A stretch of 35,061 nt of DNA from a virus (taxonomy: Duplodnaviria; Heunggongvirae; Uroviricota; Caudoviricetes), in IMG/VR virus record IMGVR_UViG_2654587570_000013, positions 1 to 35,061 of that record. One strand, written 5' to 3'. The stretch's first letter is position 1, and every line of letters starts with the position of its first letter. A program made the translations under genes and the position numbers. Below, piece by piece: positions 16,328 through 34,755 of this stretch. The notes under the pieces are model-generated. The model saw only the letters and a list, made by a program, of their open reading frames with translations, was not told the origin of the DNA and searched no databases.

Positions 16328-19300
16328 TTACCCTAATTTAGCTTCAATTGCAGCAAGACGTTCACGAAGAAGTTTATTTTCTTCGCTCATTTCTTGGACC
16401 GCTTTAATTAAAAGCGCGTTCACTGCGGAGTTTGAAATTGTTAAAATTTCTTCTGGGTTATCAAAACCACCAATTTTTGCGGTTTTAACAGCTTCCGGTA
16501 ATACCTCTTGTAAATCCTGTGCGATAATACCAATCTCATGACCTATAACTTCTCGGTCATTAAGAGATTTAACTTTATCGTAGGTTTTAACTTTGAGTTT
16601 ATTTACCTTATCCACCGCATTTTCTTCGTAATCTTCAACATTAATTTTCAGACGACGATCGGAACGAATATAAACATCGTTAAAGTTACCATTACCAGGA
16701 CAGTAAAAAGTACCATCATGATGGAACTCGAATACAGCTTGAGGGTGACCAGCCGCTGGCGATGCCTCCGCAGATCCAACACGAATAATTGCTTGCCCCC
16801 AATTTTGAGGAACACGACGCATACCAAAATCGACGGCAGTTGTATACCCTTGATTGGTGATTAAACTTCTTCCTTTGATAATCGGATAATAACAGTCCGG
16901 TGAAACATAGCCATGATCGACAAATATTGGCGCTTCTAAGCCCCATTGATCACCCCAACCTCCAGATTGGCTAGCAGTCCAACGTTCACCATGAACATAG
17001 AATCGAACGTTATTGACATGAGTCATTTCGACACCTTTTGGACTTAGCGCGATATCCCCCGCGTTTGTAATATTGATAGCAGCATTAGTAGCATAGCTAT
17101 AGAACGCTAATCCATTATCAGCACCACCTTTACCGATATACCAGTTGTTATTATCAGCACAAGTACCCAACAAATATATCGACGAATCGCCCGTTTCGGC
17201 ATTCATGATGATTGCGTCAGAACCACGATTAACTTTAAGTTTCCCGAAGAAGGTGTTTTTAATGGTATTATCACCCAATCGTTCAAATTCGGCTAAAAAT
17301 CCTTTTGAGTCACGAAGGCTTAAAACGTTATTTCGACCTGTATTGCTTGCCCCCCAATGGACGAGTTCCATATAGTCCATAGATTGACGAGAACCAGCTT
17401 TAAAGAAAAGATTGTCCTCAAGACGAGTGCTACCATCAATTCCAAGATGCAAACAGCGTGCGGTCGCTGTGCCACCTAGATCTAATCCACCACCAGCAAA
17501 ATCATAACTAAATGGTCTACGGCTATTCCACCCACCGAAAGAATCACCGTGATCTGTGGAAAGAATATGGAAGCTAGTTCCATCATTACGGAACATCAAA
17601 CCATAATTACCACCTTTAACAGCCAAACGAGCATTTTCAGATAATGCAACTTCGCTATTCATTACAATTTTCTGGCCTTTACCACCAGTAATATGTAATT
17701 CACCATCTTCAATCAGGTTTATCGAGTTTTGACCGTTATCATTCCACCAAATAAAATCTTTGGTTGTTCCATCACCGAAGCCAAACCAGCCATTACGAAC
17801 ATCTTGTCCAGTGCGATAATCCATGAAATTAAAATGGCTTGATTCGTTTGGTCCTCGACGAATATCAATACCAGAATTTCCACCAACACCACCATCCAAT
17901 GTTAATCTCTTGACATGTAACCCGGTTGTTGCTGTCAGCAATAATTCCTGATTTGTATCTTCGTATCCAGTAGCAAGACGATATGCGTTATCATCAACTG
18001 TCTCATGCCAGATAGTGGCAGGAGCAGAACTACGGAAGCGACGCAACATTTTCTTAGCATTTGTTTGCTGTTCGTTCAAATGCTCAATGTCATATTGGCC
18101 TTGATGGTTTCCAGCAAAATTTAACGTTCCACGGTTGCTAAAGTTATTGAACGATGAAATGTTAAGAGCATCAAAAATTTCATCTGCAACAGGTTTTTCA
18201 CCGCCCAGGTATTCAGGAGTATCCAACAGGTTTAAAGAAACACCACCGGAAGAAACTTGATATTCTGCTAAAACAAATCCTGTATGTGCACCATAGTAAG
18301 CGTAAAGATCATAATTGTCGCCATCGGTTGGAATAGCGCAAAAATGTTGTTCATAATGCCAAATAGTATAATACGCATTGAATACAACACCTTTCGGGCT
18401 ATTGTTGCCGCATCGAATCACCAATTCGATAATATTGGCTTGTCCATTCATCCCGACGTTATAACCGTTACCACCAACTAAGCGGATCTTAGCACTACGA
18501 CCGTGTTGCTGTGGCATTGTCAAAGTGCCTAGTTTAAACCAACCACCCTCGATCCCAAAATTAAGCGTCTTCTGGAACAGTCGGTCAATTTCTGCTTTCG
18601 AATATGCGCCAATTTCGGCAGGAGTAGGTTTATCACCTTCATGATACATGCGGTGAGAATATGCCAAATGACCCAATTCATCATAGCCGTATGTTCTTAC
18701 CGTATGAACCGGATTAGACCCATAAGTGAACTCAAAGCCACGAGCATGATTAACACCAGATGGATGCGGAACATGCAAGATCATTGCAATATGACCCGCC
18801 AGGTCATTCATGCGGAATGCACCAAAGTAATCAAGATTACGCGCATTTGGATCATCAAAATAGTTTGCGGTCTTAGACAGCAAATAACCATCAGTATAAG
18901 TGTTTACGTGTTTTTTGATGTACTTGCCATCAGCAGATCCATCGGCTGCATCAATACGGCTTTCTAAGCGTGCCAATTCAGAATCAGTGTAAGACTTGTT
19001 ATTGTCAACTTTGCTATGAATTGCTGTATTTTTGGCTTCAACATCACGGGTTAATGCTGCGACGTTATCCGCTGCCTCTTGCTTATTGGCTGCAATCACA
19101 CCAGTAAGGTTATTGTAGGTGTCAGTTAACTGATTTTCCGCATAGACTTTATTTGCTGCGATAGTGCGGTCAGTTTCTGTCTTAATCAGATCAACTTTGT
19201 CATTGATTGCTTTGTCATTACTTGCGATTGTCGCGTCGGTACGGGATTTAATATCATCAACTTTTTTATTGATGCGGGTATCCAGTTCCTGGGTTGCTAC

Positions 19301-19738
19301 AGCAGCCGCATTTTTATTAGCGTTGATGGTATCCGACAATTCAGCTTTAACACCAGCAAGGTCGGAAGCAGCTTTATTTTTATTGGCCTCGATTGTCGCG
19401 TCGGTTTCGCGTTTAATTACATCAACTTTATTGTTAATTTCTGCGTGATTTGCTGCGATGGTTGCATCAGTAGTTTGTTTAATTTCATCTACTTTAGCGT
19501 GAATATTGCGGTCATTTACTGCAATTGTGCTATCCAGTTCTTGTTTGTTAGCATCAACTTTAGATTCTAGTGCCGCGTGAGTTTCAGGAGAAACAGAGAT
19601 TTGAACTACTTCATGATCTCGGTCTTTGGTAAAAATAACATGGTCTTTAAGGTTGATTGCTACCTCACCGACCTGTAATTGTTCCGGCGTTGGTTTTTTG
19701 CCAGAAACATTTGTTCGTTTAAATTGGATCGACTGCAT
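16328..19738 (-). CDS. tail fibre/tailspike with C-terminal intramolecular chaperone (peptidase S74-type) domain
   Basis: 1136 aa; N-terminal array of roughly 22-aa shaft repeats (KVDxIKxxTDATIxAN); C-terminal ~110 aa has the S-DxRxK autoproteolysis signature (YIRS/DRRLK) and a terminal coiled coil, as in T5 L-shaped fibre and K1F endosialidase chaperone domains. Confidence 0.85.
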   Translation of the reverse strand: MQSIQFKRTNVSGKKPTPEQLQVGEVAINLKDHVIFTKDRDHEVVQISVSPETHAALESKVDANKQELDSTIAVNDRNIHAKVDEIKQTTDATIAANHAEINNKVDVIKRETDATIEANKNKAASDLAGVKAELSDTINANKNAAAVATQELDTRINKKVDDIKSRTDATIASNDKAINDKVDLIKTETDRTIAANKVYAENQLTDTYNNLTGVIAANKQEAADNVAALTRDVEAKNTAIHSKVDNNKSYTDSELARLESRIDAADGSADGKYIKKHVNTYTDGYLLSKTANYFDDPNARNLDYFGAFRMNDLAGHIAMILHVPHPSGVNHARGFEFTYGSNPVHTVRTYGYDELGHLAYSHRMYHEGDKPTPAEIGAYSKAEIDRLFQKTLNFGIEGGWFKLGTLTMPQQHGRSAKIRLVGGNGYNVGMNGQANIIELVIRCGNNSPKGVVFNAYYTIWHYEQHFCAIPTDGDNYDLYAYYGAHTGFVLAEYQVSSGGVSLNLLDTPEYLGGEKPVADEIFDALNISSFNNFSNRGTLNFAGNHQGQYDIEHLNEQQTNAKKMLRRFRSSAPATIWHETVDDNAYRLATGYEDTNQELLLTATTGLHVKRLTLDGGVGGNSGIDIRRGPNESSHFNFMDYRTGQDVRNGWFGFGDGTTKDFIWWNDNGQNSINLIEDGELHITGGKGQKIVMNSEVALSENARLAVKGGNYGLMFRNDGTSFHILSTDHGDSFGGWNSRRPFSYDFAGGGLDLGGTATARCLHLGIDGSTRLEDNLFFKAGSRQSMDYMELVHWGASNTGRNNVLSLRDSKGFLAEFERLGDNTIKNTFFGKLKVNRGSDAIIMNAETGDSSIYLLGTCADNNNWYIGKGGADNGLAFYSYATNAAINITNAGDIALSPKGVEMTHVNNVRFYVHGERWTASQSGGWGDQWGLEAPIFVDHGYVSPDCYYPIIKGRSLITNQGYTTAVDFGMRRVPQNWGQAIIRVGSAEASPAAGHPQAVFEFHHDGTFYCPGNGNFNDVYIRSDRRLKINVEDYEENAVDKVNKLKVKTYDKVKSLNDREVIGHEIGIIAQDLQEVLPEAVKTAKIGGFDNPEEILTISNSAVNALLIKAVQEMSEENKLLRERLAAIEAKLG

Positions 19739-25693: not shown

Positions 25694-27601
25694 TTAGAAC
25701 GATGTTACCCAACTACGGCCTCTATTTGGAGGTCTGACGATGTTTTGACGTTGCGGTCGTGTGATTGGCTTAGTTTCTTCGATTTGCTCGTTAGATTGCG
25801 ATTTAGGAGCTTTTACGGGTTCTTCGACAACGCGGTTTAAGCTGTCTTTCATTGCAATGAGTTTATCCCATGACATTTTTGAAAGGACGTAGCGAGAAGC
25901 CGCATAGCTATAAACCAGACAGTCGAGAGCCTCGTTTCGGGTACTACCTGGATTTTTCACCCAACGCACGCCAGTAGTAGTACGCTTGATGGATTCACTC
26001 AAAAGCTGATCGAGATAATCATCAGGAACGGTTTCTGATATCTCTAAACCAATATGAGGATTGTCTTTCAGGTTTCTAACCAGCATTTCACGAACAGCAG
26101 ATTTACCAACGTTAACACCCAGCATAAGCAATTCATGACCACCTGTGCGGGTAGGTTTAACCGGAATCACTGGAGCATTACCAGATGAACTACCTTTGAT
26201 CGCGTGTAGGTTCTTCCACTTACCGCAAATACGGTATCCGGCTTGAGTGAATCGACCGTTCGATGTATCAAGGAAGCTGGCGAGCATAGGAACACGATCA
26301 CCCGATACAGTAGTAAATTTGGTTTTATGGAAGTTGATTAATCTATCCCATACAGGGGATTCATATCGTTCACAGTTATGATCGTAAAAGCTGCGGTGAT
26401 CCAGAATGTAAACCTTATCTTTCGCTACACCTAAGATGGTAGTTTCTGCGCGATCTAATTGCTGGTCAGTACCCGCACATAAGAAAATCACGTCATCAGG
26501 GATATTCTCGATAGAAACATCTGTTTTGAGTTGTTCCAGTTCATTTGCTTCTACTGCCGTGTCCTGATCGTCGTATACCTTGCCTAACACGGTGTTAAAA
26601 AAGGATTGTAAATCAAAGGATTGCCACGCATGACTAAAATCAACCACACAAGCGCGAATCGTGCTGAAAGGTGAATACAGACGACTGATCCAGAATCCTG
26701 CTACCTCACTTTCACGGGTTGCTCTCCACTCTCCTTGTGCTACTGCCCTGATTCGTTCCCCTTCTGTCCATGCGTTCTTACAGTGGGGGCAAATATAACG
26801 AGCGGTATCAGGATCGGGTAAGTTCTTACCATCAATGTTACGCCATTCAAATTGAACGTTTTCCCACTCGATCACCTGGTGTCTACCGCAATGAGGACAC
26901 GGAACAAAAAACATACGCATATCGCTTGATAACCATTGCTGGTTAATGCTTCCCAGCTTACTGGTCGGGGTACTGGATACGACTAATCGACCTTCATCGC
27001 CAAAGGTAGTTAAACGGTTAGCAGCCAGTGCCACCGGATCACCTTCTTCTGAGGCTGTGGCAGCATCAATTTCGTCAAGTAATCCAACCTTTGCGGTCTT
27101 ACCACGTAGGGTTGATGGGCTGGTAAGCGATACCATGTACAGGAAGTGATTCGTTTTTAACTGGAGTTGGTTGTTGTTGTTAACCGCGTTGCGATCATTC
27201 TTGTCTGTAACCACGTCTTTCAATGCATCACATGCTTCGATAGACGGTCGGATCTTACCCGCGAGATATTGAGACATTTCTTTAGCGGTTGATTGTCCGA
27301 TAATCATATTGCATGGATCGTTAGCCATCTGGTTAAACAGGATACCGTTTAGGATGGTAGTTTTTCCGATCTGCGCACTGGTCATCAGTACATACTTTTT
27401 CTTATTCTCAAGGAAAGGAGCATCAATCATGCCTTTCTGGAATGACAGCAATTTAACTTTATCCCCCGCTTGAGGACCATCTACCAGCACCATATTCGCT
27501 TCGCACCATTCAGACGGAAGGAGCTTAGGCGGTGGAGTGATATATTTTGCGGCATTTTTAAGAATCTTTTTTAATTTTGCCTTATTAGAAATCAGTTTCA
27601 T
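25694..27601 (-). CDS. terminase large subunit (lambda gpA family)
   Basis: 635 aa; Walker A-like SAQIGKTT; VPCPHCG zinc motif; C-terminal [14 protein letters not shown] resembles lambda gpA RNEALDCFVYALAA as recalled; GAGGGT SD; first gene of the leftward operon. Confidence 0.9.
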
Positions 27602-28285: not shown

Positions 28286-28314
28286 AGGTGAACATTCACT
28301 TTAATTTGGAGAAA

Positions 28315-28548
28315 ATGACTATGACTACTAAAGCTACTCGCGGTCGCCCTACCCGTTTTAATCGTGAACAGATGGCTGATATTGCCTACGCTTACTATAC
28401 AGCGGATCGTGGTAAGGAAGCGAAAGAACAGATTCTTAGTGAACATGGGATCTCAATCGCCCAATTCTATAAGAATATGAAGAAGTTAGACATTAAATTC
28501 TATGTTCAGATCGGTGATGGTCAGATCGTAGAAGCAACAGGTTTTTGA
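28315..28548 (+). CDS. small HTH-like DNA-binding protein (paralogue family)
   Basis: Start placed at ATG 28315 after GGAG; the ORF track starts at a GTG at 28288. RGRPTRFNREQMADIAYAYY ... GISIAQFYKNMKKLDI parallels the 31655 protein. Confidence 0.5.
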   Translation: MTMTTKATRGRPTRFNREQMADIAYAYYTADRGKEAKEQILSEHGISIAQFYKNMKKLDIKFYVQIGDGQIVEATGF

Positions 28549-29935: not shown

Positions 29936-30394
29936 TTACAGCATATCTAAGCCTTCATCATGGCCGTAGAAGCCACCGTGAGAAGAGAAACAGATTGGTG
30001 CGTAGTCGTCGTCATCTTCGTCTTGTTCATCTTGTTCTGGGGCTTCCTGAGCGGGTTGTTTGCCGTAATCAGCCATAATCTGGTCAAGATCAGCGATCCC
30101 ATAGTAAGAGCCTAAATCAACGTCATATTCACGAACATCAAACGGCAGGTCATCACGAACAATAATTGCTGGAATATCGTTGTATTGAAGACGACCTTCA
30201 TCAGTAAGACAGTCGATGATCACAGTAGGACGACCATTTCGTTTTAAAGCGTAGAAAGCAGTTGAGTAGTTGGAGTCTTCGGAATGACGAATGATGTTAT
30301 AACCACGATTAGCGAAAACTTCTAGCATATGGAAGTTACCATAGTTTTCAGAGTCCAGACCCAGAAGTACGAAAGGAGTTTTAGTATTGATCAT
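29936..30394 (-). CDS. hypothetical protein with acidic C-terminal tail
   Basis: Start placed at MINTKTP, which has a GAGGA SD; the ORF track extends to 30424. 152 aa with a DEQDEDDDD tail. Confidence 0.5.
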   Translation of the reverse strand: MINTKTPFVLLGLDSENYGNFHMLEVFANRGYNIIRHSEDSNYSTAFYALKRNGRPTVIIDCLTDEGRLQYNDIPAIIVRDDLPFDVREYDVDLGSYYGIADLDQIMADYGKQPAQEAPEQDEQDEDDDDYAPICFSSHGGFYGHDEGLDML

Positions 30395-30967
30395 AGTGGT
30401 ATCCTCTAAAAGAAAGTGAATCAAACAAATTACACTAGTATTTATACGAGAAAAAAATATCTATTTGGAAGTGATTGGATTCAGTCGGCTTCGCCTCCTT
30501 CATGATTTTGATTAAATCATCATCAAAACGAAGGAGTATCTTTAGAATATAAGAATCTTTCTTTTGGAGAAATAATAATCAGGAAGCAATTTGGCAACCG
30601 AAGGTTGCAATCCCGAAGGGATACCAATACCTTTCTAGAAAGTGATTGTTACTCACTTCGTTCGTTTACTAGAATCAGTTAGTAACTAGCATTAAATCCC
30701 TTTCTAAGAAAATCCTTTCAAAAGTGAGTGAACGCCGTAGGCGTGAACGTGAGCGAAGCGAACTATCCAATCCCTTTCGAATCCTGCTTGCAGGTCTTAG
30801 AAGGTGTTGATGGGCGCTTCGCGCACGGCTACGCCGTATTCTTTTTGCGAGATCTTTCTTGAACGTAGTGAGAGAAAACGAGCAAAAAGGAGAACGTTAG
30901 TTCGAATTTTATATTCTATGGTCTGTGGGGTGAAATGTTTTTCAAGATCATACACTTATGAGATTGA

Positions 30968-31090
30968 AGTGTAGGGTTAGTGTAGGTGTGTAGGTTTCAT
31001 AGTGTAGGTTTGAGGGTGTTATAGTGTAGGTTTACTGGCTAGTGTAGTGTAGGCCAATCCCTTTAAAGTGTAGGTTTGTAGTGTAGGGTT
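30968..31090 (+). repeat. array of ~9 direct GTGTAGG(T/G)TT repeats (iteron-like)
   Basis: Copies start at 30969, 30980, 30988, 31002, 31024, 31047, 31068 and 31081, plus a degenerate copy at 31042; all same orientation with irregular 8-23 bp spacing, inside a 1.2-kb ORF-free region. Confidence 0.6.
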
Positions 31091-31284
31091 TTCATCAAAA
31101 ATTTTGATAGAAAATTCTTGTATATTATTTAATCAGAAAATCACCAAAAATCGCGGTAACTGCATGATTTAAAAGGAATGGTCAAAAGGTCACCGTGCTA
31201 TAATAGGTTATAAAGGTTGATAATCGTTATCCGCCATTTTCACACAAAAATTTTGATAGTCTTTTCTCGTTTAGGTCAAGTGTA

Positions 31285-31313
31285 TTGACAACTGTCAAGG
31301 ATTATTTTATACT
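31285..31313 (+). promoter_or_regulatory. near-consensus sigma70 promoter (rightward) with overlapping palindromic operator-like site
   Basis: TTGACA - 17 nt - TATACT; the -35 element is part of the palindrome TTGACA-ac-TGTCAA. Confidence 0.5.
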
Positions 31314-31654
31314 TTTTATCGCTGGTGGGGGTTGAAATTTTCTAAACAGCCCCCATATAGATGATAAGCAAGATTTTTCGTGTATAAATACATGCATGAA
31401 ATGATTGTTCACTTCTGAAAATCCCCTGATTCACTGTTAACACATACAGCACTGGTTAAACACACAGTGCTTTTTCGATTAAATAATGTACGAAATGATT
31501 AATTATTAATCTTCTCTTTAGCAATTCGTGCTCCCACTGATCGGATATACAGTGGTTTTACAGGGTTTTCTGAAATGACTTTTATAAATAGAAGTATCGA
31601 GGGCGAAAAGCTCTTTTTATTGTCCTTATTAATCCACATTTGAGGAATCTACTT

Positions 31655-31834
31655 ATGGCTAGACCTGTTAAGTTTACTCGTGAAATGATTGTTGATATTG
31701 CTAAACGCTTTTATGGCGATACTGAACGAGGCGGCGAGAATTTCTTTAAGAAGGAAGGAATTGATAGAAGCGGATTCTATAAGTTAATGAAGAAATACGA
31801 AATTCAGATAAAGATTAACGTTCAAGTTTGTTAA
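31655..31834 (+). CDS. small HTH-like DNA-binding protein (paralogue family)
   Basis: Start placed at MARPVKF, which has a TGAGGA SD; the ORF track starts at 31640. ARPVKFTREMIVDIAKRFY ... GFYKLMKKYEI parallels the 28315 protein. Confidence 0.5.
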   Translation: MARPVKFTREMIVDIAKRFYGDTERGGENFFKKEGIDRSGFYKLMKKYEIQIKINVQVC

Positions 31835-31950
31835 TCCACTTTCACTGAGAATTATATGATGGCTTTAAAAATAAAAAGCCTCCCTTGTTGCAGCAAAGGA
31901 GGCTTGAAATGAACAATTAAAACTAACACAGCATTCAGGAGTATTTATAA

Positions 31951-32946
31951 ATGAAAAATTCTAAGCGCATCACCTTCAACCTGTTTATTAAATCCAACGG
32001 CAAACTGAACATTACCGTCATGGAAGGTAAAGCAAGCAAACAAGACAAATCCTTTGAAGTAGTATCCGGTAAGACTCTGACCGAAATGCGTCAGAATGCT
32101 GGCATCAAAGACGGTGCTGAATGGCAGATCACTAACCGTTTCGACAAACGTCACGTTAAACCTACACTGGTAGAAGGTGAATCCGTTTATTGCTTCGCTC
32201 GTGCTGTTAAAGCCGATGAAACTTACTATCTCGCTGTTGTTAAAACTGCTTCCGGCTTCCGTGCTGTAATGCATCACAAGAGCAAGCGTAACGAATACGG
32301 CGTAGAGACCCAGGAAGTCGCAAAACGCTTCCGTACTGTTGCTACCGAATCCACTGTAAAGGATGTTTCTGGTACTGTTAACACCGCTAAAGGCGGTTCC
32401 TTCTACAACCACGCATTACAGGTTACTTCCTCCTTCTTCTGCAAAAAAGAAGCACAGAAAGAAGTTTCTCCGGTAGTAGTTGAAGAAGTTAAAGAAGAAG
32501 TTGCAGTGGTTGAATCTTCCGAAGTTGAAGCACTGAAAGCACGCATTGCTGAACTGGAAGCTGAAAACGCATCTCTGAAAGCTGAACTGGCAGCACAGGA
32601 AACCACTTTCGAAGTAGCAGCGGTTGAAGTTGAAGCAGTTGAAGAAAAATCCATTGATGAAGAACTGGAAGAACTCCTTAACTATCGCTGGGGTGTTGTT
32701 GCAGAAGTAGAACAAGAAGTTGCTCCGGTAGTTGTTCCGGTTGAAGTTGAAAAAGAATCCGCACCTGTTACTAACTTTGAATCCCTGCGCAATAACTTTA
32801 TGGCTAAATTCAAAACCACTTGGGAAGATACCGAAGAAGAACAAGAAGAGATTGAAGTAAACGAAGACGAGATCCGCGAAGCACAGATGGCACTGCATGA
32901 CGCTATCTACGACACCAACTACAGCGCCTACGCATACGCAGCTTAA
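31951..32946 (+). CDS. abundant acidic coiled-coil protein of unknown function (early region)
   Basis: 331 aa; globular N-terminal ~170 aa followed by a Glu/Val/Ala-rich coiled-coil and acidic tail; very strong optimal-codon bias (cgt, ctg, ggt, gaa); AGGAG SD. Confidence 0.7.
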   Translation: MKNSKRITFNLFIKSNGKLNITVMEGKASKQDKSFEVVSGKTLTEMRQNAGIKDGAEWQITNRFDKRHVKPTLVEGESVYCFARAVKADETYYLAVVKTASGFRAVMHHKSKRNEYGVETQEVAKRFRTVATESTVKDVSGTVNTAKGGSFYNHALQVTSSFFCKKEAQKEVSPVVVEEVKEEVAVVESSEVEALKARIAELEAENASLKAELAAQETTFEVAAVEVEAVEEKSIDEELEELLNYRWGVVAEVEQEVAPVVVPVEVEKESAPVTNFESLRNNFMAKFKTTWEDTEEEQEEIEVNEDEIREAQMALHDAIYDTNYSAYAYAA

Positions 32947-32961
32947 TAGAGGGGTGAATCT

Positions 32962-33204
32962 ATGATGAATCAAAACAAAGAATTTCTGGGTAATCTGATG
33001 TTAGAAATTACCAAAATGAAAGAAAGAATGGTAGCGATGGAATCAGAGATTAAAACTCTTAAAGCTGATAATAAGGCGTTGAGAAAGTCCTTAAAGCTGA
33101 TTGATGAGACTAATGCGGTTATGATGGATCATGTATTCCCTGAGTGGCGAAATGAAACTAAACCTACACAACATAAGAAACTTACACTTCGAATTGTTGC
33201 ATAA
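32962..33204 (+). CDS. small coiled-coil protein
   Basis: 80 aa; AGAGGGG SD; heptad-like pattern (MKERMVAMESEIKTLKADNKALRKSLK). Confidence 0.5.
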   Translation: MMNQNKEFLGNLMLEITKMKERMVAMESEIKTLKADNKALRKSLKLIDETNAVMMDHVFPEWRNETKPTQHKKLTLRIVA

Positions 33205-33904: not shown

Positions 33905-34456
33905 TTAAGACACATCAAATTCATCGTCTTCTTCTGGTTCTTGTTCCGGTTCATCCATTAATGGTAATTCTTCTTCCTCGTCTTCTCCTAAATCCGCATT
34001 TTCGAACAAGTCCCCTACTTCATTTAAACGACGCTCGATGATCTCCCTTAGCTTATTCTTCAATGTTTTCTGGTCGGTGGCAGATTCAAGAATTTCTAAA
34101 GCGTCGATTGTGGCGATCTGCAAAATAGTCTGTTTCACCTTCCCGCAATATTCCGCTAGTTCCTGCTCAACATACCCGACCGGAATCAGGAGGTTCATTG
34201 CTTCCTGGTTCTCTCGTTCGGCTGCATCTGCTAATGCTCTCTCACGGCGTAATTTCTCTACGTCGATTTGTTCCTTGACAGTAGTTTCCCTGAGTGGACT
34301 GATGATATTTTTTGCTACCCACTCGGTCCCCTCTTTGAGTGGCACGCGGCGGGTATTGGTATTGTAAGGTAGTCCCCTTTCTAACCATTTCTTAGCGGCG
34401 TTAATTGTATAGCCGTATAAGCGGGAAATTTCTGTAAGGGTTAATTCTTCTTTCAT
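33905..34456 (-). CDS. HTH DNA-binding protein with acidic C-terminal tail (Nu1/terminase-small-subunit-like N-terminus; alternatively a regulator)
   Basis: 183 aa; N-terminal LTLTEISRLYGYTINAAKKWLERGLPY resembles the Nu1-type HTH; central coiled coil; DEEEELPLMDEPEQEPEEDDEFD tail. Confidence 0.5.
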   Translation of the reverse strand: MKEELTLTEISRLYGYTINAAKKWLERGLPYNTNTRRVPLKEGTEWVAKNIISPLRETTVKEQIDVEKLRRERALADAAERENQEAMNLLIPVGYVEQELAEYCGKVKQTILQIATIDALEILESATDQKTLKNKLREIIERRLNEVGDLFENADLGEDEEEELPLMDEPEQEPEEDDEFDVS

Positions 34457-34755
34457 CCGGTTATCCTCCTTTAAATTTGCGTAAAATTATTTATCTGATC
34501 TGCGCATTCAGGAGAGCGCCTAAAACGCTTTATAACGAAGGGAAAGATCGAGGCATGGAAAGGGATTGGCGTGTGTTAATAGTCGCGTAGCGACCGCGCT
34601 GGTGGGCTGCACTGCACCTGTTTTGAAATCTCACACGCACATCAAATACCGGGGTGCCGAAAACTCCCTTTATTTCACCCGTGGAACAGTACCTTTTGAT
34701 TTTGTCAAGTCTTTTTTATAAATAATCGAAAATATTTTTCACACGAGGGCAAATC

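What the first reader, a model, noticed from the sequence alone, without database searches (positions are those of the whole stretch)
30425..30960. About 500 bp of ORF-free, structured sequence upstream of the iteron array
No ORF of plausible size falls here, yet the segment has local GC-rich blocks (gtgagtgaacgccgtaggcgtgaacgtgagcgaagcgaac ... gcgcacggctacgccg), small stable hairpins with GAA loops (GGCAACC-gaa-GGTTGC; CCC-gaa-GGG), a long hairpin at 30488-30545 (CTCCTTC ... GAAGGAG) and a palindrome CTTTCTAGAAAG. Candidates are a noncoding RNA, a replication origin unwinding region or a packaging site.
Basis: seen in the sequence. Interest (0 to 1): 0.45.

Follow-up and report, generated by a model that had tools for sequence, protein, structure and literature searches.

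The report
Hairpin-rich control region beside prophage iterons
The ORF-free stretch is real and consists of several exchangeable non-coding modules (operator-like palindromes, an element shared with RB49-like phages, and clusters of tiny three-base-loop hairpins) lying next to the repeat array of an uncharacterised E. coli prophage; its function is inferred, not shown.

Summary
Window 30425-30960 has no credible ORF, folds better than shuffles, and holds 5 of the window's 7 perfect C-GNA-G triloop hairpins with stems of at least 4 bp.

It is not one element. It is the left part of a 1.26-kb divergent early intergenic region (30395-31654) of an E. coli prophage integrated in ycdX. Three modules make it up:
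- An exchangeable cassette (about 30477-30636): a 75-bp element about 80% identical to RB49-like phages, plus tandem hairpins. It is absent, replaced or inverted in relatives.
- Operator-like GAAAGKGATT sites, including a 24-26-bp palindrome around CTTTCTAGAAAG.
- A type-specific block (30728-30960): an inverted set of mini-hairpins, a hairpin with one compensatory change, and an AT-rich zone. This block is inherited together with the iterons and with the orphan protein p331 (31951-32946).

Best reading (confidence about 0.33): the third module is the left arm of an iteron/p331 replicon, and its hairpins act as strand-specific single-strand initiation signals, as ssiA/ssiB do in RSF1010.

A + strand structured RNA is nearly as likely (about 0.28). 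The lowest-stability DNA lies right of the iterons, outside the finding. A packaging site is not supported. No experiment is available.

The parts
30395..31654 (.). The whole 1.26-kb intergenic region between divergent early genes p162 (29936-30394, - strand) and p64 (31655-31834, + strand). The finding is its left part.
   Evidence: ORF list. PGAP annotation of homologous prophages shows no feature here.
30485..30497 (+). hpX, a short GC hairpin (GGC-TTC-GCC). The stem is kept and the loop is hypervariable among relatives. The same 'CAGTCGGGC..GCCCTCCT' unit recurs at the right end of the type B GC block.
   Evidence: loop alleles TTC, AAA, TAAA, ATA and TA, and a compensatory TGGC/GCCA stem in L049.
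30506..30581 (+). AT-rich 75-bp element shared with RB49-like (Krischvirus) phages. Its core is the hairpin TTTTGAT-N9-ATCAAAA. A second, shorter copy lies at 31473-31511.
   Evidence: blastn gives about 80% identity to 57 phage records, with two tandem copies in RB49. Core stem with one compensated pair in the second copy. The element is inverted in L049, diverged in L024, L050 and L051, and absent in L016.
30594..30622 (+). Tandem triloop hairpins GCAACC-GAA-GGTTGC and ATCCC-GAA-GGGAT.
   Evidence: In L018, L023 and L049 they are replaced by GACGCTC-loop-GAGCGTC plus GC-GAA-GC. The first loop is CAA in L050 and L051.
30624..30649 (.). Operator-like palindrome CCAATACCTTTCTAGAAAGTGATTGT, made of two inverted GAAAGKGATT half-sites.
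   Evidence: In L004 it is a perfect 26-bp palindrome, CCAATCACTTTCTAGAAAGTGATTGG.
30695..30720 (-). Further GAAAGKGATT-type half-sites (AATCCCTTTC, AATCCTTTC). Others lie at 30467, 30769 and 31056. Their copy number varies between relatives, and they coincide with the mosaic breakpoints.
30732..30758 (+). Left arm of the type-specific GC block: ACGCC-GTA-GGCGT (30732-30744) and mini-hairpin GC-GAA-GC (30752-30758). The GNA loops are on the + strand.
   Evidence: In type B the equivalent is CCAC-GCA-GTGG, CGTC-GCA-GACG and GC-GAA-GC. L017 has a G.T wobble in the stem.
30783..30794 (.). Central palindrome CCTGCTTGCAGG, at the centre of the 106-bp imperfect palindrome 30732-30837.
   Evidence: It is invariant in the 14 type A loci in which it was located.
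30814..30837 (-). Right arm of the GC block: GCGC-GAA-GCGC (30814-30824) and ACGGC-GTA-GCCGT (30825-30837), read on the - strand. A T-run follows on the + strand (ATTCTTTTTG).
   Evidence: The stems of hp1 and hp1' differ by a compensated C-G/G-C swap (seen in the sequence). The loop polymorphism T30819A is common.
30841..30889 (+). Hairpin H3 (stem CTTTTTGC/GCAAAAAG) enclosing ACGTAGTG.
   Evidence: Pair 30848-30882 goes C-G, then T.G (L050, L054), then T-A (L049). RNA fold z = -2.7.
30900..30945 (.). AT-rich, promoter-like zone just left of the iterons. On the + strand TTTATA-17-TGAAAT (TATAAT in six loci: L019, L047, L050-L053). On the - strand TTCACC-17-TAAAAT.
   Evidence: The second position of the hexamer is hypervariable.
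30964..31090 (+). Iteron array: 8 exact GTGTAGG cores, mostly spaced 11-23 bp apart. It lies outside the finding but belongs to the same type-specific module.
   Evidence: It is replaced by other repeat families in types B, C and D.
31091..31140 (.). AT-rich segment (GC 0.15), the least stable duplex next to the iterons and a candidate unwinding element.
   Evidence: -39.5 kcal per 40-mer, sixth least stable 40-mer of the window.
31951..32946 (+). p331: a type-specific N-terminal domain, a coiled coil and an acidic tail. It is the inferred iteron-binding protein. Inverted iteron copies lie inside it (32157-32168) and inside p80 (33159-33169).
   Evidence: Co-variation in 7 of 7 type A loci against 0 of 16 loci of other types. 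Domain layout. Extra iterons. No family or structure match.

Best explanation
The 500 bp are not a single element. They are the left two-thirds of the divergent early control region of an uncharacterised temperate E. coli siphophage.

The left half (about 30465-30727) holds binding sites for a conserved phage regulator (GAAAGKGATT half-sites, one full palindromic operator). Between two of these sites sits an exchangeable cassette: a short GC hairpin, the RB49-like AT-rich element and two triloop hairpins.

The right half (30728-30960) is the left arm of a type-specific replicon module whose core is the iteron array and whose specificity protein is p331.

Inferred mechanism: p331 binds the iterons and opens the adjacent AT-rich DNA. 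As unwinding spreads, or under negative supercoiling, the GC-rich inverted block folds into extra-stable C-GNA-G mini-hairpins, on the + strand in its left arm and on the - strand in its right arm. These SSB-resistant hairpins then mark where a priming or helicase-loading enzyme starts each strand, diverging from the centre of the palindrome. This is how ssiA and ssiB work in RSF1010 oriV and how hairpins work at the G4 complementary-strand origin.

Shown: the anatomy, the modularity, the co-inheritance with the iterons and p331, and the conservation of the hairpins through compensatory changes.

Inferred: that p331 is an initiator, that the hairpins form in DNA, and that they prime.
For: Context:
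- The window is a prophage in ycdX with a large serine recombinase.
- No recognisable replication protein was found among the proteins scanned, so p331 is the only candidate.

Module structure:
- Mosaic breakpoints lie at about 30635, 30727 and 31090.
- Four allelic modules (types A-D) each combine a GC-hairpin segment with a different repeat family.

Link to p331:
- A p331 homologue of 93-99% identity is present in all 7 type A loci and in none of the 16 others. The others carry a protein of the same layout with a different N-terminal domain.
- Replicon-like extras: inverted iterons inside p331 and p80, a conserved antisense-type terminator upstream of p331, and an AT-rich minimum beside the iterons.

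Hairpins:
- 5 of the window's 7 C-GNA-G hairpins with stems of at least 4 bp lie in 30594-30837, with the loops on opposite strands in the two arms.
- Most of the hairpins catalogued here and in relatives have 3-base loops.
- Local stems are kept by compensation. hp1 and hp1' differ by a C-G/G-C swap. Type B has CGTC-GCA-GACG and GGGC-TAC-GCCC at the same places. The GCGAAGC cores are identical in types A and B although the p331 domains are only about 27% identical.
- None of the 10 variable sites among 8 type A haplotypes breaks a local stem.
- The common T30819A change is neutral for the mini-hairpin but puts an A.A mismatch in the long-range helix.

Literature:
- GNA mini-hairpins occur at G4 oric, in RSF1010 ssiA (CCGAAGG) and in N4 promoters (PMC13037366).
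- ssiA and ssiB are 40-nt inverted repeats on complementary strands within an iteron origin (PMC8567376).
Against: - p331 has no detectable similarity to any initiator and its structure could not be predicted. It could instead be a repressor or a centromere-type protein.
- No primase or helicase is encoded, and no DnaA or IHF sites are found.
- Types C and D have only one GC hairpin (GCGCCC-CGCA-GGGCGC), so no inverted pair.
- Similar hairpin pairs occur where there are no iterons: in the RB49 intergenic region and at 34582-34594 upstream of the TerS-like gene.
- The tandem GAA hairpins sit in a cassette that L016 lacks, and one of their loops is CAA in L050 and L051.
- The loop of the right-hand hairpin in type B varies (TAC, AAA, TAAA), so GNA is not always kept.
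- Three of three stem transitions give G.U on the + strand, and + strand RNA folding is much better than - strand folding. This fits an RNA equally well.
- Co-inheritance with the iterons may be mere linkage between recombination points.
Confidence: 0.33

Rival explanations
1. A + strand structured RNA (a small RNA or a long leader) is transcribed through the region. It starts somewhere between the RB49-like element and about 30685. It folds into the tandem hairpins, the 106-nt GC hairpin (30732-30837) and H3. In type A it ends at the T-run at about 30846, or it reads on into the iterons. It would act as a regulator of early or replication genes, or as a primer or R-loop RNA for the adjacent origin.
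For: - The + strand RNA fold of 30728-30840 is -51 kcal/mol with z = -5.0, and the centroid equals the MFE structure. The - strand folds markedly less well (-68.7 against -50.3 kcal/mol for the 177-nt type A block).
- The same asymmetry is seen in type B, whose interior differs in sequence but still pairs.
- The scan flags 30825-30837 plus ATTCTTTTTG as terminator-like.
- H3 shows the path C-G, U.G, U-A.
- C30742T and A30810G also give G.U on the + strand.
- In RB49 the homologous element and hairpin pairs lie in the sense orientation in an early intergenic leader and are followed by U-runs.
Against: - No Rfam family matches, even at E = 10.
- No promoter with conserved geometry: TTGTTA-18-TAGAAT scores 9/12, and the spacing collapses in type B relatives.
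- Promoter-like hits are not enriched: 9 found against 7.6 expected.
- In type B the T-run is 11 nt from the last hairpin.
- Triloops dominate, which is unusual for RNA (own knowledge).
- T30819A, found in about half of the type A sequences, breaks the 8-bp core helix.
- The perfect local stems with a compensated swap argue for local hairpins rather than the long helix.
- A crude arm comparison shows no excess of G.T over A.C (3 against 2, and 3 against 4).
- The element is inverted in L049.
- No type-consistent complementarity to the p331 mRNA: duplex energies equal those of shuffles, and the 13-mer match occurs in type A only.
Confidence: 0.28
2. This is purely a double-stranded regulatory and architectural region. 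The palindromes and repeats are operators for phage regulators of the two divergent early operons, forming an immunity region. The GC palindrome is a bidirectional terminator or insulator, or a protein-binding inverted repeat. p331 plus the 'iterons' would be an immunity (repressor-operator) or centromere-like module rather than a replicon.
For: - GAAAGKGATT sites cluster here. They also occur at the two other divergent regions, TerL/p198 at 27590 and TerS-like/LprI at 34558.
- A perfect 26-bp palindrome is present in L004.
- CAAAAATTTTGATAG occurs twice, flanking the strong promoter at 31285.
- Repressor-operator modules are classically polymorphic among related temperate phages (own knowledge).
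- The 12-mers GTGAGCGAAGCG and CGCTTCGCGCA are conserved as sequence between types A and B.
- p331 has a coiled coil and an acidic tail, like some DNA-binding partition or regulatory proteins.
Against: - Arrays of 8 to about 25 same-orientation repeats in helical phase are typical of iterons or centromeres, not of repressor operators (own knowledge).
- An integrated prophage needs no centromere.
- Stems change by compensation while the loops stay GNA, which a sequence-reading double-strand binder does not explain.
- The short stems lack U-tracts, so most of them are not terminators.
Confidence: 0.2
3. The region is a packaging site (cos or pac). The GC-rich imperfect palindrome would be the nicking site, and the repeats would be small-terminase binding sites, as cosN and cosB are in lambda.
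For: - The order 'GC-rich palindrome, then repeats, then a gene for a protein with an N-terminal DNA-binding domain, a coiled coil and a C-terminal tail' resembles cosN-cosB-Nu1 (own knowledge).
- The large terminase is of the lambda gpA type.
Against: - A separate TerS-like gene exists at 33905-34456 (phrog_57, E = 4e-15).
- The large terminase gene (TerL) lies 2.8 kb away on the other strand.
- The block varies with p331, while the gene next to TerL, p198 (function unknown), stays 87-95% identical across types.
- Contig ends near the region coincide with repeats or with polymorphic boundaries, not with a fixed end.
Confidence: 0.04

Closest known systems
RSF1010 (IncQ) oriV: iterons, GC/AT-rich segment and ssiA/ssiB
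   Same: - Iterons bound by a dedicated protein.
- Next to them, two hairpin-forming sequences on complementary strands arranged as an inverted repeat.
- The ssiA hairpin contains the CCGAAGG mini-hairpin, and the same heptamer occurs in both tandem hairpins here.
(PMC8567376; PMC13037366.)
   Different: - No RepB'-type primase, RepA helicase or RepC homologue.
- The hairpins are shorter (4-6 bp) and there are several per arm.
- The strongest AT-rich minimum lies on the other side of the iterons.
- Types C and D have a single hairpin.
- The element is in an integrated phage, not a plasmid.
Lambda-type phage origin (iterons, AT-rich region, palindrome; initiator with a type-specific N-terminal domain)
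   Same: - Direct repeats in helical phase with an adjacent AT-rich segment.
- The specificity of the repeats and of the N-terminal half of the protein is swapped as a module among related phages, while the C-terminal motif is shared. The lambda side of this comparison rests on my own knowledge.
   Different: - The repeats lie about 0.9 kb upstream of the gene, not inside it. Only two stray inverted copies are inside genes.
- p331 shows no similarity to the lambda O protein.
- No P-type helicase loader is present.
Phage N4 virion RNA polymerase early promoters and the phage G4 complementary-strand origin
   Same: Function depends on small DNA hairpins with 5-7-bp stems and G-N-A three-base loops closed by C-G. 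These resist SSB and can extrude from supercoiled DNA (PMC13037366). The hairpins here have the same geometry.
   Different: - No N4-type polymerase gene is present in the window.
- This is not a single-stranded phage.
- No activity has been tested.
PeSL cassettes of RB49/phi1 (promoter-early stem-loop)
   Same: - Short GC stem-loops (GGGC..GCCC type) at module boundaries in intergenic DNA.
- Cassettes are gained, lost and inverted between close relatives.
- The region shares a 75-bp element with RB49 itself.
(PMC2839356; PMC4122927.)
   Different: - A PeSL is defined by a near-consensus sigma-70 promoter right after the stem-loop and before a gene start. None is found after hpX.
- The shared 75 bp lie downstream of the RB49 PeSL-like terminator, not within it.

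Membership tests
Iteron-type theta origin | Array of three or more direct repeats in one orientation, roughly in helical phase. | tested here: met
   8 exact GTGTAGG cores at 30969-31087 against 2.0 expected. Start-to-start spacings 8-23 bp, most of them 11-23. The array lies just outside the finding.
Iteron-type theta origin | A cognate initiator protein whose specificity matches the repeats. | tested here: inconclusive
   p331 co-varies perfectly with the repeat type: 7 of 7 against 0 of 16. It has no similarity to any known initiator, and its structure could not be modelled.
Iteron-type theta origin | An AT-rich unwinding element next to the repeats. | tested here: met
   31094-31135 has GC 0.15 and is the sixth least stable 40-mer of the window. 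It lies right of the iterons, not inside the finding.
Iteron-type theta origin | Host-factor sites (DnaA boxes, IHF). | tested here: not met
   One 1-mismatch DnaA box at 31630 and no IHF consensus in 30395-31654.
IncQ-type single-strand initiation signals (ssiA/ssiB) | Two hairpin-forming sequences on complementary strands, as an inverted repeat inside the origin. | tested here: inconclusive
   Met in type A (30732-30758 on the + strand, 30814-30837 on the - strand) and in type B. Not met in types C and D, which have a single hairpin.
IncQ-type single-strand initiation signals (ssiA/ssiB) | A cognate plasmid primase (RepB') and helicase (RepA). | tested here: not met
   No primase or helicase family hit in any of the proteins scanned.
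IncQ-type single-strand initiation signals (ssiA/ssiB) | Priming of complementary-strand synthesis on single-stranded DNA. | not testable with these tools
   This needs an M13 ssi assay or in-vitro priming.
Any curated RNA family (Rfam 15) | A covariance-model score at or above the gathering threshold. | tested here: not met
   No hit in the whole window. The best sub-threshold hits are eukaryotic snoRNA or miRNA models at 11-24 bits.
Intrinsic terminator or terminator-ended small RNA | A GC-rich stem immediately followed by a U-tract, with a promoter upstream. | tested here: inconclusive
   Type A has ACGGCTACGCCGT followed by ATTCTTTTTG. In type B the T-run is 11 nt away, and in types C and D it is weak. 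The promoter geometry is not conserved.
PeSL cassette (T4-type phages) | A stem-loop, an AT-rich tract and a near-consensus sigma-70 promoter directly upstream of a gene start. | tested here: not met
   The hpX stem-loop is present, but no promoter of at least 9/12 follows it (the only + strand 9/12 match begins 150 bp downstream, at 30646) and no gene start follows. Definition from PMC4122927.
Lambda-type nut site (boxA plus boxB) | A 5-bp stem with a GNRA-like pentaloop, preceded by boxA. | tested here: not met
   The hairpins in the finding have 3-base loops. The only GAAAA-loop hairpin is at 31599-31615, outside the finding.
cos/pac packaging site | Lies next to the terminase genes, and its specificity matches the terminase. 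| tested here: not met
   TerL is at 25694-27601 and the TerS-like gene at 33905-34456. The block co-varies with p331, not with the terminase-side genes. Physical genome ends are not testable here.

The most novel reading that the evidence does not exclude
C-GNA-G triloop DNA mini-hairpins, typically one hairpin with a G-T/C-A loop followed by GCGAAGC, may be a portable class of single-strand initiation or recognition signals. They would be shared by unrelated coliphages: this temperate siphophage family and the T4-like RB49 group, which also share a 75-bp element and tail-fibre DNA. A host enzyme or a still unidentified phage protein would read them. Here they would form the strand-specific start sites of a new phage replicon built on an orphan initiator family (p331) that exists in at least four interchangeable specificities.
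Probability: 0.15. Interest if true: 0.7.

Novelty: new variant of a known kind. Interest (0 to 1): 0.45.

Why it matters
If the reading is right, this prophage family carries a compact replicon of a known logic (iterons, a specificity protein, hairpin start signals) built from unknown parts:
- an initiator with no relatives outside E. coli and Shigella, present in at least four interchangeable specificities;
- DNA mini-hairpins of the kind so far studied mainly in G4, RSF1010 and N4.

That would give a natural system for asking how such hairpins are read in a double-stranded temperate phage. It would also allow a test of why the same hairpin pair and a 75-bp element occur in T4-like RB49 phages.

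If the RNA reading is right instead, it is a new, type-variable phage RNA next to an origin.

Either way the finding is a lead, not a result. Nothing here has been shown experimentally, and much of the left half is dispensable, exchangeable DNA.

Tried and rejected
- Rfam at gathering threshold and at E up to 10: nothing.
- tRNA and tmRNA: none.
- blastn against plasmids: no match.
- Scans of species-representative genomes with p162 and with a hairpin pattern: nothing.
- p331: no phage tblastn hit. Only coiled-coil hits in Pfam and PDB. The single-sequence AlphaFold model was unusable, pLDDT 44. Only 6 representatives among 1.8 billion proteins.
- Antisense pairing of the region with early mRNAs: energies no better than shuffles. 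The 13-nt match to p331 (30829-30841 against 32293-32305) has no counterpart in type B.
- DnaA, IHF and Dam site enrichment: none.
- A sigma-70 promoter inside the RB49-like element or at 30646-30675: weak, with non-conserved spacing.
- Small conserved ORFs: none.
- Considered by eye only and dropped as weak: CRISPR-repeat mimicry (types I-F and I-E); an IncP-type nick site (AATCCTGC at the palindrome centre, absent in type B); similarity to E. coli REP elements (a 10-mer GGCGTGAACG, with no multicopy hits in E. coli genomes).
- G.T against A.C asymmetry of the palindrome arms: uninformative.
Full report
**What the window is.** The 35-kb window is most of a prophage of about 37 kb.
- In E. coli UTME-9 the same element splits ycdX and carries a 564-aa serine recombinase, a lambda gpA-type large terminase, portal, capsid and siphovirus tail genes.
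- 58 of 5,426 complete E. coli genomes hold the 30300-31700 stretch, always on the chromosome.
- No isolated phage is close. The best large-terminase match is 45% identical. Only the tail fibre is shared, at 80-94% DNA identity, with RB49-like Krischvirus phages.
- The finding lies in a 1.26-kb gene-free region (30395-31654) between two divergent early operons. Leftward: p162, p51 and a Rha/Ant-like protein. Rightward: p64, p331 and p80.

**Check of the observation.**
- The largest ORFs are 44-56 aa, and PGAP annotates nothing there in seven genomes.
- The 536 nt fold better than 100 dinucleotide shuffles on both strands: + strand z = -4.9, - strand z = -3.3.
- In 150-nt windows the region is only moderately unusual (z = -2.3 to -3.4) and is not among the top 20 of 699 windows.
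- The sharper signal is the kind of hairpin. Perfect stems of at least 4 bp closed by C-G around a G-N-A loop occur 7 times on both strands of the window, and 5 of them lie in 30594-30837.
- The 'long hairpin' outer stem CTCCTTC/GAAGGAG is perfect only in this window.
- CTTTCTAGAAAG is the centre of a 24-26-bp palindrome of two GAAAGKGATT half-sites, which is perfect in L004.

**Relatives show a mosaic, not one element.** I compared 24 IMG/VR loci found through p162, 21 loci found with a DNA pattern (most of them come from contigs already in the first set) and 7 E. coli genome loci. Breakpoints lie at about 30635, 30727 and 31090.

*1. The left cassette (about 30477-30636).* It has three parts:
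- a short GC hairpin, hpX;
- a 75-bp AT-rich element that is about 80% identical to two tandem copies in the ORF165c/ORF164c intergenic region of RB49 and its relatives;
- two triloop hairpins.

It is flanked by direct GAAGTGATTG repeats. Relatives differ as follows:
- L016 lacks the cassette.
- L018, L023 and L049 replace the hairpins by GACGCTC-loop-GAGCGTC plus GC-GAA-GC.
- L024, L050 and L051 have diverged elements.
- In L049 the core of the element is inverted.

So the sequence is exchangeable, but 'two adjacent hairpins, the second GCGAAGC-like' is kept.

*2. The operator-like sites.* GAAAGKGATT sites number 7 in 30412-31065. They vary in copy number and mark the module junctions. Single copies also sit in the TerL/p198 and TerS-like/LprI divergent regions. 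This is what operators of a conserved regulator would look like.

*3. The type-specific block (30728-31090).* This unit exists in at least four versions:

| Type | Repeat family | GC segment |
|---|---|---|
| A (this window) | GTGTAGG | inverted set of mini-hairpins |
| B | GGGGCAAA | larger inverted set of mini-hairpins |
| C | ACGGGGA | single hairpin GCGCCC-CGCA-GGGCGC |
| D | CCGGGGGATTT | single hairpin GCGCCC-CGCA-GGGCGC |

Each version has a GC-hairpin segment, then a conserved AATATCTTT-like tract, an AT-rich stretch and the repeats.

**The specificity partner.** A p331 homologue of 93-99% identity is present in all 7 type A loci and in none of the 16 others. p64, p162, p86 and Rha vary independently.
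- The other types encode, at the same place, proteins of 313-360 aa with the same layout: a divergent N-terminal domain of about 25-27% identity, a coiled coil and an acidic region. Types A, B and D share a C-terminal motif.
- Two further iteron copies lie inverted inside p331 and p80.
- A - strand terminator between p64 and p331 is conserved in all four types with compensatory changes. This predicts an antisense RNA over the p331 ribosome-binding site.
- The least stable duplex next to the iterons is 31094-31135, on their right.

These are the habits of an iteron replicon. But p331 matches nothing known and could not be modelled. 'Initiator' is therefore an inference.

**The hairpins.** In type A the block 30732-30837 is a 106-bp imperfect palindrome.
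- Left arm, + strand: ACGCC-GTA-GGCGT, then GC-GAA-GC.
- Right arm, - strand: ACGGC-GTA-GCCGT, then GCGC-GAA-GCGC.
- Centre: CCTGCTTGCAGG.

The two GTA hairpins differ by a compensated C-G/G-C swap. Each local stem is therefore perfect, while pairing between the arms is mismatched at exactly those two positions.

Type B has CCAC-GCA-GTGG, CGTC-GCA-GACG and GC-GAA-GC on the left, and GCGC-TTC-GCGC and GGGC-TAC-GCCC on the right. The stems are changed, the loops are again GNA, and the GCGAAGC cores are identical. RB49 has CTCC-GTA-GGAG-TT-CGC-GAA-GCG after its first element copy and CCGC-GTA-GCGG (- strand) after the second.

Among 8 type A haplotypes, 10 sites vary over 184 nt and none breaks a local stem:
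- C30742T gives G.T.
- The pair 30848-30882 of hairpin H3 goes C-G, T.G, T-A.
- T30819A changes only a loop base, yet it would put an A.A mismatch in the middle of the long-range helix.

Most of the hairpins catalogued have 3-base loops.

**DNA or RNA.**
- For DNA: C-GNA-G triloops are the 'extraordinarily stable' DNA mini-hairpins. They are known at the G4 complementary-strand origin, in RSF1010 ssiA (CCGAAGG, a heptamer present in both tandem hairpins here) and in N4 virion-polymerase promoters (PMC13037366). In RSF1010, ssiA and ssiB are inverted 40-nt hairpin signals on complementary strands of an iteron origin (PMC8567376). The local stems, and not the long helix, are what variation preserves.
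- For RNA: the + strand folds much better than the - strand. The long hairpin has z = -5.0 and is followed by a T-run in type A. All three stem transitions give G.U on the + strand. In RB49 the homologous pieces lie in the sense orientation in an early leader.
- Against RNA: there is no Rfam hit, no promoter with conserved geometry, no terminator in type B, and no type-consistent target complementarity.
- A crude count of G.T against A.C positions between the arms is uninformative.

**Verdict.**
- I put the origin-flank, DNA-hairpin reading first (0.33). The + strand RNA reading is close behind (0.28). A purely double-stranded regulatory reading follows (0.20), and a packaging site is unlikely (0.04).
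- The left 250 bp of the finding are mainly operator-like sites and a dispensable, exchangeable cassette.
- The finding is real and of moderate interest. It is a new variant of known kinds of element built from uncharacterised parts, and the experiments listed would decide between the readings quickly.

Noticed in passing
window 31866-31990: A - strand intrinsic terminator (31876-31905 plus a T-run) between p64 and p331 is conserved in all four iteron types with compensatory stem changes. Together with a - strand promoter-like site (31987-31958), it predicts an antisense RNA of about 85 nt covering the p331 ribosome-binding site, as in plasmid rep-gene control.
   Followed up: partly
window 31285-31620: A near-consensus sigma-70 promoter (TTGACA-17-TATACT, 31285-31313) is followed by a leader of about 340 nt. 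The leader has strongly + strand-specific structure (z = -4.5 against -1.3), a hairpin at 31325-31356, and a GAAAA-loop hairpin plus T-run at 31599-31615 just before p64. This could be an attenuator or a nut-like site.
   Followed up: no
window 32157-32168 and 33159-33169: Two extra copies of the iteron (AGTGTAGGTTTA), in inverted orientation, lie inside the p331 and p80 coding sequences.
   Followed up: partly
window 31473-31511: A second, shortened copy of the RB49-like element (GATTAAATAATGTACGAAATGATTAATTATTAATC) lies in the p64 leader. The motif TGATTAAAT also occurs inverted at 31124-31138, and it resembles a Fis site (1-2 mismatches to a loose consensus).
   Followed up: partly
window 27590-27599 and 34558-34594: The GAAAGKGATT motif also occurs in the TerL/p198 and TerS-like/LprI divergent regions. 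At 34582-34594 it is followed by another GTA-loop hairpin (GTCGC-GTA-GCGAC) and a GC-rich tract, which could be a second control site or cos.
   Followed up: no
window 30485-30497; L005, L006 and L025 right end of the type B GC block: The hairpin hpX keeps its stem, but its loop has five alleles (TTC, AAA, TAAA, ATA, TA) among otherwise near-identical sequences. L049 has a compensated TGGC/GCCA stem. The same unit, CAGTCGGGC-loop-GCCCTCCT, recurs as a direct repeat at the far end of the type B block.
   Followed up: partly
window 30931-30936: The hexamer T-N-A/T-A-A-T just left of the iterons is hypervariable at its second base among type A prophages (TGAAAT, TATAAT, TTAAAT, TCAAAT, TAAAAT). 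If it is a -10 box, its strength would differ widely between strains.
   Followed up: no
window 28288-28548 and 31655-31834: p86 and p64 are paralogous small proteins with a GRP-type arm followed by a helix-turn-helix-like segment. One follows p198 and the other heads the p331 operon. Both occur in several alleles that assort independently of the iteron type.
   Followed up: no
window 16328-19738: The tail-fibre gene shares 80-94% DNA identity with the long-tail-fibre distal subunits of RB49-like and other T4-type coliphages. This is evidence of recent exchange between this temperate siphophage and lytic myophages.
   Followed up: no
whole window: The heptamer GCGAAGC occurs 11 times against 3.1 expected (none of 100 shuffles reaches 11). 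Three copies are in the finding and most of the others are in coding sequence.
   Followed up: no
window 29936-30394: p162 is restricted to E. coli and Shigella (75 clusters, 44-97% identity). It models as a Rossmann-like alpha/beta domain with a disordered acidic tail (EDDDDYAPICF...). It has no P-loop and no informative structural neighbour.
   Followed up: yes
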